Origin: Holophagales bacterium
GTDB lineage: Bacteria; Acidobacteriota; Thermoanaerobaculia; Multivoradales; UBA5704
Direction: 5' to 3'
Length of the DNA stretch: 64,000 nucleotides
Assembly (NCBI GenBank): GCA_031390755.1
Contig: JANMTS010000109.1
Span: forward strand, 5,773-69,772
Shown here: positions 10,319 to 49,271 of the stretch, piece by piece
Layout: each line of letters opens with the position of its first letter
Numbering within the stretch: position 1 is the stretch's first letter
Translations under genes and position numbers: made by a program
The notes under the pieces: model-generated
Told to the model about the DNA's origin: nothing
Seen by the model: only the letters and a program-made list of their open reading frames with translations
The model's database searches: none

Positions 10319-10402
10319 GAGGGTGTTTGGAAAGGCTGGGGCCGGGGGTGAGGGCCGCAGGCCTCAGACGCCCGAGGAACGGGACTTTCCAAACACCCTC
10401 TT
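10317..10402. repeat. Perfect 18-bp inverted repeat (aagagggtgtttggaaag / ctttccaaacaccctctt) with a 50-nt spacer between convergent genes
   Basis: The left arm 10317..10334 starts inside the purC stop codon. The right arm 10385..10402 encodes the ..KRVFGK.. C-terminus of the small minus-strand ORF. The spacer contains ggggccgggggtgaggg, which resembles the terminus of the element at 51671..51867. Confidence 0.7.
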
Positions 10403-10558
10403 GATCTCGTCCTGGGAGACGACTCGCCCCTCGTTCGCCGCCTGAAGCCCGATCGCGATTTTTTGACGCACATAGAGCTCATAGAGAAGCTCATCCCAGG
10501 TGGCGTGATCAGGCAGACGCTCAATCACCTGCAGCGCTTCCTCCTTGACCGTACTCAA
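10364..10558 (-). CDS. Small (64 aa) antitoxin-like protein with no cognate toxin gene adjacent
   Basis: TTG start preceded by a strong AAGGAGGA. The sequence ..VIERLPDHATWDELLYELYVRQKIAIGLQAANEGRVVSQDEIKRVF resembles a small-protein family usually found as the antitoxin-side partner of type II TA pairs (recognised from memory, not searched). Confidence 0.5.
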   Translation of the reverse strand: MSTVKEEALQVIERLPDHATWDELLYELYVRQKIAIGLQAANEGRVVSQDEIKRVFGKSRSSGV

Positions 10559-10645
10559 CCGATCCTCCTTGTCACCGTCCCTCCATCAGCCTCAATCTTA
10601 CCAGCCCGAAGCGGCTCCATGCAGGAGGCCGAGTCCATGGATTCT

Positions 10646-10885
10646 GTTGCAACCAGCCCGCAACTCACAGCAGAAACCCTGTCATCTCGCGTCAAGCTCT
10701 TGTTTGTCGCATCCGCAAACCCGCGAGTCGCATCAGAAATCCTGCTTGTTGCATCAACTCACGGCATTGTCGCATCCACAACCTGAACTTCTGCTGCGAC
10801 AAACAGGGAATCGGATGCGACTCGCGGGGATTCTGATGTGACAAACGAGGTTTCTGCTGCGACAAACTCGTTTGTCGCAGCAGAA
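10646..10885. repeat. Phased short-motif array: 4 forward + 4 reverse GT(C/T)GCA cores at exactly 21-bp spacing, ending in a 34-bp perfect palindrome
   Basis: Forward GTCGCA/GTTGCA cores are at 10706, 10727, 10748 and 10769. Reverse TGCGAC/TGTGAC cores are at 10795, 10816, 10837 and 10858, with one more forward at 10874. The palindrome is ttctgctgcgacaaac-tc-gtttgtcgcagcagaa at 10852..10885. A 15-bp inverted pair cccgcgagtcgcatc (10720..10734) / gatgcgactcgcggg (10814..10828) is also present. G+C is about 53% in the one 60-nt line I counted. Confidence 0.8.
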
Positions 10886-10919
10886 TTCGGGAAGTTCGCG
10901 TCAAAAAACTCGGGTGGTT

Positions 10920-12368
10920 CTAGCGCACGGCGCCCAGCAGGTACTTGATGTTCTCGTCGTTCCAGCGGATGCCGCCGCCGAGGAAGTACGAGTCGTTCTC
11001 CAGGAAGTCGTCGTAGCCTCCCAGCAGGTACAGGTTGGGATGGAAGCGCCAGCGGCCGGTCAGGCGCAGATGCGGGGAGAGATCCTGCGGCCGGCTGAAG
11101 TCGAAGGCCTCGAACGAGACCAGGAAGCGGTCGCTGAGCAACGGCATCTCCACCTGGGCGCCGCCGGTGTTCTCGATCAGGCCGGCGAACAAGCGGATGT
11201 CGCGCGGCGCGCGGTAGCCGAAGAGCGCGGTGGCCGCGTAGGTCTTCTCGTTCGTGATGGTGCTGATGGTCGTCGTGTCGACCGAGCCGTTCGGGTTGGT
11301 CACGGTCACGGTCTGGGACTTCTCCCGCCGCTTGCCGCCCGGCGGGCTGCTCACGCCGGCCCGGTAGAGCCGCGTCTTGTCCTGCGGGTCGATGTCCAGG
11401 AGGAATGTGGTCTGGGACTCCTCGGGATCTCCCAGGTAGTAGCCCTGCAGATCGAGGTCGATCTTGAACTTGTTCACCGCACCGAGGGTGCCGCTCAGGG
11501 TCTCGACGCCGCCCTGGATGCTGTCCAGGGTCGAGAGCACCTGGTCGTAGGCCTTCTCGTCGTTGACGAGTTTGCCGATCGTCCCCTCGCCGCTGGCGAT
11601 CTTGCCGGAGATCTTGTTGACGTTGTCGACCGACACCTGAAGCCGGTCGGTGACCTCGCGGATGTTCGCGAGGCTGGTCGAGACGTTGCCGCGGTTGTCG
11701 GCGACGAGGGTCTCGATCTGGCGCAGGGTGCGGTCCATCTGATCGGCGAGCCGGGGCAGCTCGCTGGCCAGGATGGCGCTCGCCTGGTTCGCGTTGGCCA
11801 GGGTCGAGGAGAGGTTCGCGCGGTTCTCGGCCACCACCAGGCGGATCTCCCGGCTGGTCAGCTCGAACTCCGAGATCAGGCGGTTGATGCTGTCCCCCAG
11901 ACTGGCCCCGGAGAGCGAGCCGGTGATCTGCTGGATCGAGGTGCCGATGTCGTTGATCTTGGCGATGGCCTCGTCGATGCTGGGCGGCGTCTTGCCTGGG
12001 AGGACCGCGCCGGGCGCCAGCAGCGGCGCATCCAGGGGGCCGGGAATGAGCTCGATGTACTTCTCCCCGAGGAGGCCCAGGTTGGCCACCCGCGCGTAGC
12101 TGCCCTCGGTCAGGTTGACCGGCTGCTCCAGCACGAGCGTCACCCGCGCGCGGCGGCCGCTCAGGCCCACGGAGTCGACGCGGCCCACGCGCACACCCGC
12201 CACGCGCACGGTCGCCTTGTCGTCGAGGCCGGCGACGGAGTCGAACTCCGCCTGGATCTTCTTGTCGTCCTTGGCGAATGGATTGAGGTCTTCGATCTTC
12301 CAGACCAGAACCGCGAGGACAATGAGACAGATGGTGGCAAAGAGGCCCACCTTGACAACTTGGTTCAT
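10920..12368 (-). CDS. mlaD: MlaD/MCE-domain protein (long form, coiled-coil plus C-terminal domain)
   Basis: Start at MNQVVKVGLFATICLIVLAVLVW (GGAGGGG upstream). The MCE domain reads AEFDSVAGLDDKATVRVAGVRVGRVDSVGL, followed by long helical repeats. Stop is TAG. Confidence 0.8.
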   Translation of the reverse strand: MNQVVKVGLFATICLIVLAVLVWKIEDLNPFAKDDKKIQAEFDSVAGLDDKATVRVAGVRVGRVDSVGLSGRRARVTLVLEQPVNLTEGSYARVANLGLLGEKYIELIPGPLDAPLLAPGAVLPGKTPPSIDEAIAKINDIGTSIQQITGSLSGASLGDSINRLISEFELTSREIRLVVAENRANLSSTLANANQASAILASELPRLADQMDRTLRQIETLVADNRGNVSTSLANIREVTDRLQVSVDNVNKISGKIASGEGTIGKLVNDEKAYDQVLSTLDSIQGGVETLSGTLGAVNKFKIDLDLQGYYLGDPEESQTTFLLDIDPQDKTRLYRAGVSSPPGGKRREKSQTVTVTNPNGSVDTTTISTITNEKTYAATALFGYRAPRDIRLFAGLIENTGGAQVEMPLLSDRFLVSFEAFDFSRPQDLSPHLRLTGRWRFHPNLYLLGGYDDFLENDSYFLGGGIRWNDENIKYLLGAVR

Positions 12369-12438
12369 CGACACCCCTCCGGCCTTGAGTCTATCAGCAG
12401 GCACCCTGATCGGACGGATCGACTATGCTCAAAACCCG

Positions 12439-47931: not shown

Positions 47932-48363
47932 ATGGATCTCCACGACCTCCTCCACGGCCTCGCCGACGCCGTTGCTCCCCTGCTCGCGCTGCTTGCCCTG
48001 CTGAACCCGCTGATCCGGCCCCCACTGGGCGACCGGCGGGCCGTCGTCCGGTACTTCATTGCAGCGGCTCTCGGAGTCGCCTTCATCTACCTCGTCGCGG
48101 GGATCGACTCCGCCTTCGGCCTCTGGCCTCGCGCGGGTCTCGACTACAGCACGCACACGGCGTTCACCACGACGTTGCTGGTGTCATTGTGGGCATCCCG
48201 GCCGGGATGGGTCTGGGGATTGGGGACGGTGCTGGTGGGATATGGGGCGCTGATGGTCGGGCTTGGCTTTCACAGCGTCGCCGATGTCTGCACGGCGGCG
48301 ATCGTTGCAGCGGCAGTCACCCTGCCTCTTCACGGCGCTCGCTCCTTCCGGAGCCCTCAATAA
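47932..48363 (+). CDS. Small integral membrane protein with degenerate PAP2-like motifs
   Basis: 143 aa with 4 TM segments. WPRAGLDYSTHTAF (compare PSGHT) and GFHSVADVCTAAIV (compare HxxxD) resemble acid-phosphatase motifs 2 and 3; motif 1 is not evident. Confidence 0.45.
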   Translation: MDLHDLLHGLADAVAPLLALLALLNPLIRPPLGDRRAVVRYFIAAALGVAFIYLVAGIDSAFGLWPRAGLDYSTHTAFTTTLLVSLWASRPGWVWGLGTVLVGYGALMVGLGFHSVADVCTAAIVAAAVTLPLHGARSFRSPQ

Positions 48364-48750
48364 TGCCGCAACCTCGACTTCTTCACCGCAACACAATCTT
48401 ATGTTGCGGCATGGCATCCTTCTTTTGCCGCAACCTTGACTTGTTCGCCGCAACCTGACTTCTTTTTGCGGTGAACACCTTGGCCTTGCCGCAACCTAAG
48501 TTTTTTCACCGCAATCTAGATTAATTTTGCCGCAACATAAGCTTCTTGACCGCAAGTCAAACTTATTCACCGCAAGTTGCCGCAACCATGCCGCGACTTG
48601 TCCCTATTCGCCGCAGACTTGACTTTTTCACCGCAACCCAGGATTGTTCACCGCAACGTGGCGCCAGCCAGGGGTCGCTTCGCGGGTTTGCCGCAACCTT
48701 GGAGCCCCTGACAGCGCGGTCGGCTGAGTCGCTGAATTTTGCCGCAACCT
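48364..48750. repeat. Iteron-like array: 18 CCGCAA-core units at 20-21-bp phasing in a ~50% G+C intergenic region
   Basis: Forward cores are at 48366, 48386, 48428, 48448, 48489, 48509, 48530, 48550, 48570, 48580, 48591, 48611, 48631, 48651, 48691 and 48742. Reverse TTGCGG cores are at 48404 and 48466. Units alternate between TTGCCGCAAC (near-palindrome) and TTCACCGCAAC, often followed by CTTGACTT. I counted 30/60 and 29/60 G+C in the first two lines. Confidence 0.85.
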
Positions 48751-48773
48751 CTCTTGAGGAAGGAAGACGGGGC

Positions 48774-49271
48774 ATGGGATCGAAGCTGTCGGTCGAAGAG
48801 ATTCTGGCGGGGCTGGAAAAGCGGGCGGCTGCGCTTCGGGAGAAGGAGGCCTTCCATGCGCAGCAGGAAGATCACCATCGGGAGCAGCGGGCGCTTCATG
48901 CGGCCGAGCTTCAGAAGGTGGAGGCGAGCCTCGAGGCGTTCCGGACGGCGGCGTCCCCCGCGGTCGAGCTTGCGGCTCCGGTACGGGACCGGGCAGGCTC
49001 CGAGGAGGAGAGTCTTCCGGGGCCGGGGCGCCTCCTGGTCAGCCGGCTGGTGCGGATGACGGCGCTGAGCCCCACGCTGGACCAGCCGTTCGGTCCCAGC
49101 GCCGTGGCGACGGAGGTGAACCGCCGCTACCCGAAACAGCTCTCCAGGCCGGTCGACATCCGCGCGGCGTCCGACGTGCTGCGGCGGATGGCGGCCGAGG
49201 GCTGGATCCGGCTCGACCGGCCGGGGAAGGCGTTCCACGAGGCCCTGTACACCCGCATCCATCAAGGGTGA
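48774..49271 (+). CDS. Hypothetical 165-aa protein (coiled-coil N-half, possible winged-helix C-half)
   Basis: ATG at 48774 preceded by GAGGAAGGAAG. It reads MGSKLSVEEILAGLEKRAAALREKEAFHAQQEDHHREQ... and ...IRAASDVLRRMAAEGWIRLDRPGKAFHEALYTR. The part of the track ORF upstream of 48774 merely reads through the repeats. Confidence 0.55.
   Translation: MGSKLSVEEILAGLEKRAAALREKEAFHAQQEDHHREQRALHAAELQKVEASLEAFRTAASPAVELAAPVRDRAGSEEESLPGPGRLLVSRLVRMTALSPTLDQPFGPSAVATEVNRRYPKQLSRPVDIRAASDVLRRMAAEGWIRLDRPGKAFHEALYTRIHQG

What the first reader, a model, noticed from the sequence alone, without database searches (positions are those of the whole stretch)
10646..10885. Second phased array: 4 forward + 4 reverse GTCGCA cores at exactly 21-bp spacing, forming a large dyad upstream of a 64-aa antitoxin-like ORF
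GT(C/T)GCA occurs at 10706, 10727, 10748 and 10769. Its complement TG(C/T)GAC occurs at 10795, 10816, 10837 and 10858. All intervals are exactly 21 bp, giving a roughly 170-bp dyad centred near 10785.

Superimposed on this are a 15-bp perfect inverted pair (10720..10734 and 10814..10828) and a 34-bp perfect palindrome (10852..10885).

CCGCAAC and TGTTGCAAC motifs at 10646-10664 resemble the core of the 48.4-kb array. Both arrays share reduced G+C, a position 5' of a small ORF with a strong SD, and two-helical-turn phasing.

This points to a shared mechanism, namely cooperative wrapping or oligomerisation of a small DNA-binding protein. The 64-aa product of 10364..10558 is the obvious candidate ligand.
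Basis: partly seen in the sequence, partly recalled or inferred. Interest (0 to 1): 0.6.

Follow-up and report, generated by a model that had tools for sequence, protein, structure and literature searches.

The report
Orphan copy of dispersed 21-bp array
The phased repeat array is real, but it is one of about 26 scattered copies of a 290-bp repeat element in this soil-type acidobacterial genome. It most likely serves as a docking lattice for an uncharacterised winged-helix protein encoded elsewhere, not for the small antitoxin gene next to it.

Summary
In detail: GTYGCA/TGYGAC cores at exact 21-bp phase, the 15-bp inverted pair and the 34-bp palindrome are all present and far above chance. The array is not a local operator. 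It is the inner part of one copy (window 10636-10913) of a stereotyped element of about 291 bp (14 x 21-bp units, unit nnTTCTGMTGCGACAAACnnG). The element occurs at about 26 intergenic sites in this Thermoanaerobaculia genome and was not found in its relatives.

The neighbouring 64-aa ORF is a solo antitoxin of the ParE type. Its homologues and paralogues never carry such arrays.

The link to the 48.4-kb array is real. The 165-aa ORF beside that array (long helix plus winged helix, no Pfam family) belongs to a family in which 44 of 45 gene copies examined have a 20-21-bp phased array directly upstream, and array motifs track protein relatedness. One paralogue, on contig C28, has a full copy of this very element as its upstream region, at a syntenic and therefore ancestral position.

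My best reading is that the units are binding sites for that paralogue, and the window copy is an orphan landing pad derived from the gene-proximal array. How the element spreads is unknown: I found no target-site duplication, no transposase partner and no RAYT link. No arm-specific compensatory change supports an RNA hairpin role.

The parts
10636..10913 (.). Whole copy of the family-A dispersed element: 278 bp, 13 units, with one 21-bp unit missing relative to the 291-bp consensus. G+C is 52.5% against 68% for the genome.
   Evidence: BLAST of this stretch against its own genome finds about 26 loci. MAFFT of 24 copies is nearly gap-free over 292 columns. Composition.
10640..10653 (+). Left terminal unit GATTCTGTTGCAAC, which is terminal-inverted-repeat-like. 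Family consensus is (CCYG)GAATTYTGTTGYAAC.
   Evidence: Conserved at the same end of the aligned copies.
10654..10700 (+). Degenerate units 2-3, including CCGCAAC at 10658-10664 and CTCACAGCAGAA.
   Evidence: Conserved block cCCGCAAcTCGCAgCaGaAACC in the family alignment.
10701..10788 (+). Four forward units (GTYGCA-KC-AGAA type) with cores at 10706, 10727, 10748 and 10769.
10789..10871 (-). Four reverse units TTCTGMTGYGAC(AAAC) starting at 10789, 10810, 10831 and 10852, with cores at 10795, 10816, 10837 and 10858.
   Evidence: (family D1). Unit matrix from 200 units.
10852..10885 (.). 34-bp perfect palindrome formed by the last reverse unit and the next forward unit. This feature is conserved across the family (16-bp core-to-core spacing).
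   Evidence: I9. The same 16-bp spacing is seen in most copies.
10872..10908 (+). Two terminal forward units: TTGTCGCAGCAGAA and the degenerate right end GTTCGCGTCAAAAA (family consensus GTCRCATCAAAA).
10364..10558 (-). 64-aa solo antitoxin-like gene with a strong Shine-Dalgarno sequence and a TTG start. Its ParE toxin partner is absent here. It is not part of the element.
   Evidence: 53 homologues. In 6 of 6 places examined a 103-aa PF05016 ParE_toxin gene follows, and the upstream gap is too short for an array.
10920..12404 (-). MlaD-domain protein gene. Its stop codon lies about 7 bp from the right end of the element.
   Evidence: Pfam PF02470, E = 5.6e-20.
48340..48750 (+). Family-C array: about 17 units of ~20 bp with core CCGCAAC, directly upstream of the 165-aa gene.
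   Evidence: Autocorrelation at lags 20/41 (L039).
48774..49271 (+). 165-aa protein (here called pC) with a long N-terminal helix and a C-terminal winged helix. It is a member of the protein family that always carries a phased array upstream. It is a paralogue of the candidate ligand of the family-A element (pA, own genome contig C28:44850-45350, minus strand, outside the window).

Best explanation
The array is the core of one orphan copy of a roughly 291-bp modular repeat element, here called family A. The element has 14 units of 21 bp, arranged as one outward terminal unit, about seven units in one orientation, four to five in the other, and then two reversed terminal units.

Shown:
- The element occurs at about 26 intergenic sites of this genome with the same unit-by-unit architecture.
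- 119 of 291 columns are at least 90% conserved, while mean pairwise identity is only 69%.
- One copy forms the entire upstream region of a paralogue (pA, contig C28) of the 165-aa coiled-coil plus winged-helix protein encoded next to the 48.4-kb array.
- Members of that protein family almost always have a 20-21-bp phased array upstream.

Inferred:
- Each 21-bp unit (nnTTCTGMTGCGACAAACnnG) is a binding site for pA.
- Because units are spaced two helical turns apart, the proteins line up on one face of the DNA. They may be joined through their long N-terminal helices, and so coat the element.
- The gene-proximal copy is the ancestral autoregulatory or docking array. The other copies, including the one in the window, are derived orphans that act as extra landing pads or are simply tolerated.
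- At this locus the element fills the spacer between the mlaD stop codon and the solo antitoxin gene. Any effect on either gene would therefore be a by-product.
- The mechanism that copies the element to new sites is not identified.
For: Dispersal and architecture:
- The 271-bp query hits about 26 loci on both strands at 67-88% identity.
- 24 copies align almost without gaps, and unit-specific differences are shared across copies, so whole elements were copied.
- The dyad centre lies 168 nt from the left end in most copies.
- 132 of 146 family-A 12-mers in the genome lie in these loci.
- Conservation is position-specific: 119 columns at >=90%, 34 columns below 50%.

Link to the protein family:
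- tblastn finds 6 paralogues of the window's 165-aa ORF. Six of the seven gene copies have a phased array directly upstream, each with its own core.
- The C28 paralogue carries a complete family-A element whose left end lies about 45-55 bp from its start codon.

Generality:
- In 45 gene copies from many genomes, the top autocorrelation lag of the upstream 500 bp is 19-22 or 38-43 in 44 cases. The figures are 10 of 41 downstream and 15 of 43 further upstream.
- All 13 intact paralogues in a near-complete congener show the same pattern, and several have orphan arrays.
- Protein identity correlates with upstream 7-mer profile (Spearman 0.48; Mantel 0 of 2000).
- pC-like orthologues at 53-63% identity mostly keep CCGCAAC-type cores.

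Protein fold:
- AlphaFold2 gives pLDDT 87, with helix 7-67 plus a winged helix at 87-161.
- Foldseek returns only generic winged-helix DNA binders: Fur, PerR, MarR, linker histone, TubR.

Ancestral position:
- The pA orthologue in a congener is syntenic (same upstream gene). It has sparse TGCCGCGAA sites instead of the element.
Against: - No binding has been shown, so the protein-site link rests on adjacency and co-variation. Both could partly reflect shared descent of a gene and its upstream DNA.
- One adjacency among 26 copies could arise by chance, with odds of roughly 0.03 by a crude count. That is offset by the absence of any other array upstream of pA.
- Orphans show no consistent orientation or position relative to gene starts, so no common regulatory role is evident.
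- A different dispersed 21-bp array family in a congener (about 22 loci) has no copy next to a gene of this protein family. Dispersed arrays therefore do not all depend on this protein family.
- The protein has no catalytic domain, so it does not explain how copies spread.
Confidence: 0.58

Rival explanations
1. The element is a MITE-like non-autonomous mobile element. The terminal and sub-terminal 21-bp units would be binding sites for an unidentified transposase, as in the multi-site ends of Tn7, Mu or Tn402. On this reading the copy upstream of the C28 paralogue is just one more insertion.
For: - Defined ends with imperfect inverted terminal units, (CCYG)GAATTYTGWTGYRAC.
- Near-constant length, intergenic location, and about 26 copies.
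- Absent from 40 relatives, including 10 congeners, and from 185,579 species genomes and JGI metagenomes.
- One orthologous site in two congeners is empty.
- A subgroup of four copies is 89-97% identical, which suggests recent copying.
Against: - No target-site duplication is visible at the one empty-site comparison, where the insert also carries about 45 extra bp.
- No longer element with the same ends was found, and no isolated end pairs.
- Mean identity of 69% with strongly position-specific conservation is unlike a recent burst.
- 44 of 45 genes of the winged-helix family have their own array upstream, so the C28 copy is expected there rather than incidental.
- The two readings are not exclusive.
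Confidence: 0.22
2. The element acts as RNA or single-stranded DNA. A long imperfect hairpin in the 3' untranslated region would terminate or stabilise transcripts, in the manner of REP/BIME or BOX elements.
For: - The predicted fold is far more stable than shuffles: RNA -127 kcal/mol, z = -6.9; DNA z = -7.1.
- Most copies lie 10-100 bp after a stop codon, often between convergent genes.
Against: - Left and right arms of the same copy pair no better than arms taken from different copies (-65.9 against -67.4 kcal/mol). The hairpin potential therefore follows from the shared unit consensus, with no copy-specific compensation.
- Copies occur in both orientations relative to the upstream gene.
- There is no T-run terminator.
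- No Rfam family reaches its gathering score.
- The 20-21-bp period matches two turns of B-DNA across unrelated array families.
Confidence: 0.1
3. One reading: the array is the operator of the adjacent 64-aa protein, which binds it cooperatively.
For: - The array lies 5' of the ORF, about 80 bp from its start. The ORF has a strong Shine-Dalgarno sequence and is a real conserved gene.
- Antitoxins commonly autoregulate.
Against: - Homologues in 6 of 6 places examined have only 58-140 bp upstream and no array, and are followed by ParE.
- The three paralogues in this genome show no 21-bp periodicity upstream.
- About 25 other copies of the element have no such gene beside them.
- Both the element and the ORF are absent from the orthologous spacer in congeners.
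Confidence: 0.03

Closest known systems
Centromere-like or iteron arrays next to the gene of their binding protein (R1 parC/ParR, R388 stbS/StbA, pBtoxis tubC/TubR, plasmid iterons/Rep)
   Same: - Tandem short repeats phased on one DNA face.
- The array lies directly upstream of a small gene for a DNA-binding protein (winged helix in TubR and Rep).
- The motif co-varies with the protein.
   Different: - The modules are chromosomal, with 1-20 per genome.
- No conserved partner NTPase or replication genes appear in the neighbourhoods seen.
- The protein is unrelated in sequence to any of these families.
- Here the array has also spread to about 25 gene-less sites.
REP/BIME/REPIN elements with RAYT transposases
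   Same: - A single-copy gene flanked by its cognate repeat, plus many dispersed intergenic copies.
- Inverted arrangement with hairpin potential.
- Lineage-specific.
   Different: - The units are 21-bp non-palindromic sites without the GTAG/CGTC tag.
- None of the 12 Y1-transposase hits in the genome has family-A units nearby.
- The associated protein is a winged-helix protein without a catalytic domain.
[quoted passage not shown]
   Same: - About 290 bp, non-coding, with inverted terminal units.
- Multi-copy, intergenic, and patchy in distribution.
   Different: - No target-site duplication was seen.
- No parent insertion sequence was found.
- The interior consists entirely of phased repeats.
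- The copies are old (69% identity) but have conserved cores.
BOX elements of Streptococcus pneumoniae (boxA-boxB(n)-boxC)
   Same: - Modular build with distinct end modules and a variable number of internal repeats.
- Intergenic, with strong predicted secondary structure.
   Different: - Unrelated in sequence and host.
- The unit is 21 bp rather than 45 bp.
- There is an apparent cognate protein gene.
Multi-site transposon ends (Tn7 TnsB sites, Mu L1-L3/R1-R3, Tn402 19-bp repeats)
   Same: Several sites of about 20-22 bp in direct orientation within each arm, with the two arms inverted.
   Different: - No transposase genes lie between or near the arms.
- The outermost units are inverted relative to the inner arm.

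Membership tests
REP/BIME-RAYT | The unit is a 20-40-bp imperfect palindrome with a conserved GTAG or CGTC head. | tested here: not met
   The unit consensus nnTTCTGMTGCGACAAACnnG is not self-complementary and has no such head.
REP/BIME-RAYT | A Y1 (IS200/IS605-type) transposase gene is flanked by the repeats. | tested here: not met
   There are 12 PF01797 hits in the genome, and none has a family-A unit within 1.5 kb.
MITE | Terminal inverted repeats. | tested here: met
   The ends (CCYG)GAATTYTGTTGYAAC and GTCRCATCARAAT.CRGG are imperfect inverted copies of about 15-18 bp.
MITE | Target-site duplication flanking the insert. | tested here: inconclusive
   One empty-site comparison was possible (the C125 copy against two congeners). 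It shows a ~300-bp insert next to a stop codon with no evident direct repeat. Other sites lack conserved synteny.
MITE | A related autonomous element with the same ends encoding a transposase. | tested here: not met
   No separated end pairs were found, and no units outside the 26 loci other than singletons. The assembly has 185 contigs, so a copy could be missing.
Centromere/iteron array with cognate binding protein | A phased tandem array lies adjacent to the gene of a DNA-binding protein. | tested here: met
   This is met for the family as a whole: 44 of 45 genes, and the C28 copy of family A. It is not met at the window locus itself, which is an orphan.
Centromere/iteron array with cognate binding protein | A partner partition NTPase (ParA/ParM/TubZ) or replication functions lie in the same operon. 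| tested here: not met
   Neighbouring genes differ between places and include no such gene.
Centromere/iteron array with cognate binding protein | The protein binds the repeats. | not testable with these tools
   This needs a gel-shift, footprint or ChIP experiment.
Intrinsic terminator | A G+C-rich hairpin followed by a T-run. | tested here: not met
   The 34-bp palindrome has no T-run after it. The scan gave one weak site, at background rate.
Any Rfam RNA family | A match at or above the family's gathering score. | tested here: not met
   There were 0 matches in the whole window.
Known Pfam/NCBIfam protein families (for the 165-aa protein) | A match above the curated cut-off. | tested here: not met
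   There were no hits. Across 50 members only sub-threshold winged-helix-like hits appeared: DUF3253, PaaX, TrmB.
ParE-type toxin-antitoxin operator (for the 64-aa ORF) | The array co-occurs with the antitoxin gene in other genomes. | tested here: not met
   0 of 6 homologous places and 0 of 3 paralogues have an array.

The most novel reading that the evidence does not exclude
Thermoanaerobaculia may carry an undescribed chromosomal protein-DNA system. A fast-evolving family of coiled-coil winged-helix proteins would each polymerise on a private lattice of YGCRAC-type sites spaced two helical turns apart. In some lineages the lattice itself would become a copyable 291-bp element that seeds dozens of extra protein-coated sites at gene ends. 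That would make it a protein-defined dispersed repeat, analogous in logic to REP/RAYT but built on a non-catalytic DNA binder. It might act in transcription roadblocking or chromosome organisation.
Probability: 0.3. Interest if true: 0.8.

Novelty: new variant of a known kind. Interest (0 to 1): 0.6.

Why it matters
If the units are indeed bound by the C28 paralogue, this genome offers a natural experiment: one gene-proximal array and about 25 orphan arrays for a single small DNA-binding protein. Sister paralogues in the same genome have one to about 14 arrays each, with different cores. That makes several questions directly testable:
- how recognition specificity of a winged helix co-evolves with its sites;
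- what a protein-coated 290-bp lattice does at gene 3' ends;
- how a binding array turns into a dispersed repeat without an obvious transposase.

The result also serves as a warning for annotation. In these genomes a phased array next to a small gene is not evidence that the two belong together.

Tried and rejected
- **Local operator of the 64-aa ORF:** rejected, because there is no co-occurrence.
- **Conservation in orthologous spacers:** the mlaD-purC spacer in congeners has neither the element nor the ORF. Two congeners carry a different 21-bp array (CAACCCGCCGGTTT) at the same place. That family has about 22 loci in one of them, and none lies next to a gene of the 165-aa family.
- **Hairpin selection:** own-arm against other-arm duplex energies show no excess.
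- **Target-site duplication:** six joined flank pairs were searched in 10 congeners. Only the C125 site was contiguous, and it showed no clear duplication.
- **RAYT link:** none.
- **Autonomous parent element:** none found.
- **Wider distribution:**
  - The exact two-unit pattern has 0 hits in species genomes and in metagenome contigs.
  - The core-architecture pattern finds only a related element in Acidobacteriota MAG_Dt_02, with no 165-aa family gene within 8 kb, plus unrelated simple palindromes.
- **Coding 7-aa repeat:** GC3 is 0.55 against 0.94 for mlaD, and open frames fall in different frames in different copies. They are a by-product of the 21-bp period.
- **Known fold or family for the 165-aa protein:** only a generic winged helix.
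- **Literature:** no paper in the held library combines Thermoanaerobaculia with such repeats.

Full report
**Observation**

- Forward cores GTCGCA/GTTGCA lie at 10706, 10727, 10748 and 10769.
- Reverse cores TGCGAC/TGTGAC lie at 10795, 10816, 10837 and 10858.
- Spacing is 21 bp within each arm and 26 bp across the centre.
- The 15-bp pair 10720-10734 / 10814-10828 and the 34-bp palindrome 10852-10885 are both perfect.
- All five TTGTCGCA octamers of the 64-kb window are here, against 1.2 expected.
- Four phased core pairs occur where 0.04 are expected.
- Tandem Repeats Finder reports a 21-bp period.
- G+C falls to about 52-56% against about 68% in the flanks.
- No Rfam family matches anywhere in the window.

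The region lies between the stop codon of an MlaD-domain gene (10920-12404, minus strand; Pfam) and the start of a 64-aa ORF (10364-10558, minus strand).

**It is a dispersed element, not a one-off**

Searching the 271-bp stretch against the window's own genome (7.65 Mb, 185 contigs, 68% G+C) gave 143 local matches on both strands. These collapse to about 26 loci. Printing them showed one stereotyped architecture.

MAFFT aligned 24 copies almost without gaps over 292 columns. In order, the element contains:
- a left terminal unit, (CCYG)GAATTYTGTTGYAAC;
- a conserved CCCGCAAYTCGCAGCAGAA block;
- several units of the form GTCGCA-KC-AGAA;
- a centre with 26-bp core spacing;
- four or five units TTCTGMTGCGACAAAC;
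- a unit pair forming the palindrome;
- a right end, GTCRCATCAAAA.

That is 14 units of 21 bp, about 291 bp in all. Unit-specific peculiarities are shared by the copies, for example the TCGCATCAACTCACATC unit. Whole elements were therefore copied, and arrays did not grow independently.

The window copy spans 10636-10913 and lacks one unit. Family statistics:
- Mean pairwise identity is 0.69 (range 0.55-0.97).
- 119 of 291 columns are at least 90% conserved and 34 are below 50%.
- The unit matrix from 200 units reads nnTTCTGMTGCGACAAACnnG.
- 132 of the 146 family-type 12-mers in the genome lie in these loci.
- All copies are intergenic. Most lie within 10-100 bp of a gene's 3' end, in either orientation.

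**Distribution**

- The family was not found in 40 relatives, including 10 genomes of the same genus. There was one weak hit.
- An exact two-unit pattern has no match in one genome for each of 185,579 species or in JGI metagenome contigs.
- A pattern that uses only the cores and their spacing found a related but distinct element in an Acidobacteriota MAG. Otherwise it found only unrelated palindromes.
- The orthologous mlaD-purC spacer in congeners holds neither the element nor the 64-aa ORF.
- Two congeners carry a different 21-bp array (CAACCCGCCGGTTT) at that same place.

**The 64-aa ORF**

It is a genuine conserved small gene, with 53 homologues, typically 59 aa. In all six places examined it is followed, with a 4-nt overlap, by a 103-aa ParE_toxin gene. 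It is preceded by only 58-140 bp.

It is therefore an antitoxin, and in the window it has lost its toxin partner. Its three paralogues in this genome show no 21-bp periodicity upstream. None lies beside a family-A copy (coordinates). The proposed ligand is not supported.

**The link to the 48.4-kb array**

This genome also holds other phased array families:
- family B, core GTTGCAAC, about 14 loci;
- family C, core CCGCAAC, at the 48.4-kb array plus two other loci.

tblastn with the 165-aa ORF next to the 48.4-kb array (48774-49271) found six paralogues. Six of the seven gene copies have a 20-21-bp phased array immediately upstream, each with its own core:
- CCGCAAC (window);
- GTTGCAAC (family B, contig C128);
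- CTGTGACGA;
- TGTACATTGA;
- a GCGCGCAA type;
- on contig C28, a complete family-A element whose left end is about 45-55 bp from the start codon and which fills the whole spacer.

The cores of A, B and C are transition variants of YGCRAC.

**The protein family**

- It has at least 176 homologues, all unnamed, from Thermoanaerobaculia.
- It has no Pfam, NCBIfam or informative PHROG match.
- It has no sequence relative in the PDB.
- AlphaFold2 (pLDDT 87) gives a long helix (residues 7-67), a disordered linker and a winged helix (87-161).
- Foldseek returns only generic winged-helix DNA binders at weak E-values.
- It occurs in 41 of 61 genomes of the same taxonomic family, at 1-20 copies each.
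- In an even sample of 151 genomes of the class, it was found only in the window's own genome and one other genome of the same family.

Evidence that arrays go with these genes:
- For 45 gene copies, the upstream 500 bp has its strongest autocorrelation at lag 19-22 or 38-43 in 44 cases. The figures are 10 of 41 downstream and 15 of 43 further upstream.
- The same holds in three environmental contigs and for all 13 intact paralogues of a near-complete congener.
- Protein identity correlates with similarity of the upstream 7-mer profile (Spearman 0.48; 0 of 2000 permutations reach it).
- pC-like orthologues at 53-63% identity mostly keep CCGCAAC-type cores.
- Orphan copies of such arrays also exist in the congener, but only one to three per family. 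Family A is the extreme case.
- The pA orthologue in a congener is syntenic, with the same upstream gene, and is 55% identical. It has sparse TGCCGCGAA sites where this genome has the family-A element.

The gene-proximal position is therefore ancestral, and the dispersed copies are derived.

**Mechanism and rivals**

The 21-bp period (two turns of B-DNA), the position-specific conservation and the gene-array association favour a protein-binding lattice for pA.

An RNA or DNA hairpin role is less likely.
- The fold is very stable (z about -7).
- However, arms of the same copy pair no better than arms from different copies (-65.9 against -67.4 kcal/mol).
- Copies occur in both orientations.
- There is no T-run terminator.

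A MITE-like origin remains possible and is compatible with protein binding. The ends are inverted and the length is fixed. Against it:
- the single usable empty-site comparison shows no target duplication;
- no parent element exists in the assembly;
- no Y1 transposase is associated with the units.

Coding is excluded. GC3 is 0.55, against 0.94 for mlaD, and the open frames are not in a conserved frame.

**Earlier scan notes and literature**

After reaching this reading I consulted earlier notes of this scan. Several independently describe array-plus-small-gene modules and dispersed 21-bp arrays in Thermoanaerobaculia. They agree with this reading but are unchecked AI notes, and I do not count them as evidence.

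Two full-text searches found no paper describing such elements.

**Verdict**

It is wrong about the ligand and about locality.

The finding is one orphan copy of a lineage-specific dispersed element that belongs to an undescribed protein-array system.
- That it is a dispersed element is near certain.
- That the C28 paralogue binds it: about 0.55-0.6.
- How it spreads is unknown.

Noticed in passing
window 48340-49271: A CCGCAAC array of about 17 units (~20-bp period) lies directly upstream of a 165-aa coiled-coil plus winged-helix gene. The gene family has invariant His28 and His35 in the long helix, which hints at metal or redox sensing.
   Followed up: partly
window 10338-10356: GGGGCCGGGGGTGAGGGCC lies between the purC stop and the antitoxin stop. 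It is a further dispersed motif, with 17 copies in the genome. The same motif flanks the left end of the four most similar family-A copies (C66, C179, C170, C114), so those may be parts of a larger duplicated block.
   Followed up: partly
window 10320-10334 and 10385-10399: A perfect 15-bp inverted repeat, AGGGTGTTTGGAAAG / CTTTCCAAACACCCT, spans the purC-antitoxin convergent junction. Its right arm lies inside the 3' end of the antitoxin ORF. It may be a bidirectional terminator or a remnant of the lost toxin region.
   Followed up: no
window 10364-10558: The 64-aa antitoxin has no ParE toxin gene after it, and only 45 bp separate it from the purC stop. Its C-terminus is 5 aa longer than that of its homologues. 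This looks like a solo antitoxin left after toxin loss.
   Followed up: partly
L033 195-520 (congener G005) and L034 560-830 (congener G008): A different phased array (unit about 21 bp, core CAACCCGCCGGTTT) sits at the orthologous site downstream of mlaD. It has about 22 loci in G005, and none lies next to a gene of the 165-aa family. Another protein family may be its partner, or the mlaD 3' spacer may be a preferred landing site.
   Followed up: partly
own genome, e.g. C111:19719-20029, C125:94972-95283, C128:39064-39380: Family-B arrays (TTGTTGCAAC, spacing 20/21/41, interspersed with short tcccg...cggga palindromes) occur at about 14 loci. One lies upstream of the C128 paralogue of the 165-aa gene.
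   Followed up: partly
L037 335-2318: In one environmental contig, the array-plus-gene module lies next to Tn7/Mu-like transposition genes (rve, Mu-transpos_C, AAA_22). This is probably coincidental but worth a look, given the unknown dispersal mechanism.
   Followed up: no
own genome, contig ends (C41:155, C100:215, C154:101242, C170:5249): Several arrays lie within a few hundred bp of contig ends. This suggests that these repeats break short-read assemblies, so copy numbers are lower bounds.
   Followed up: no
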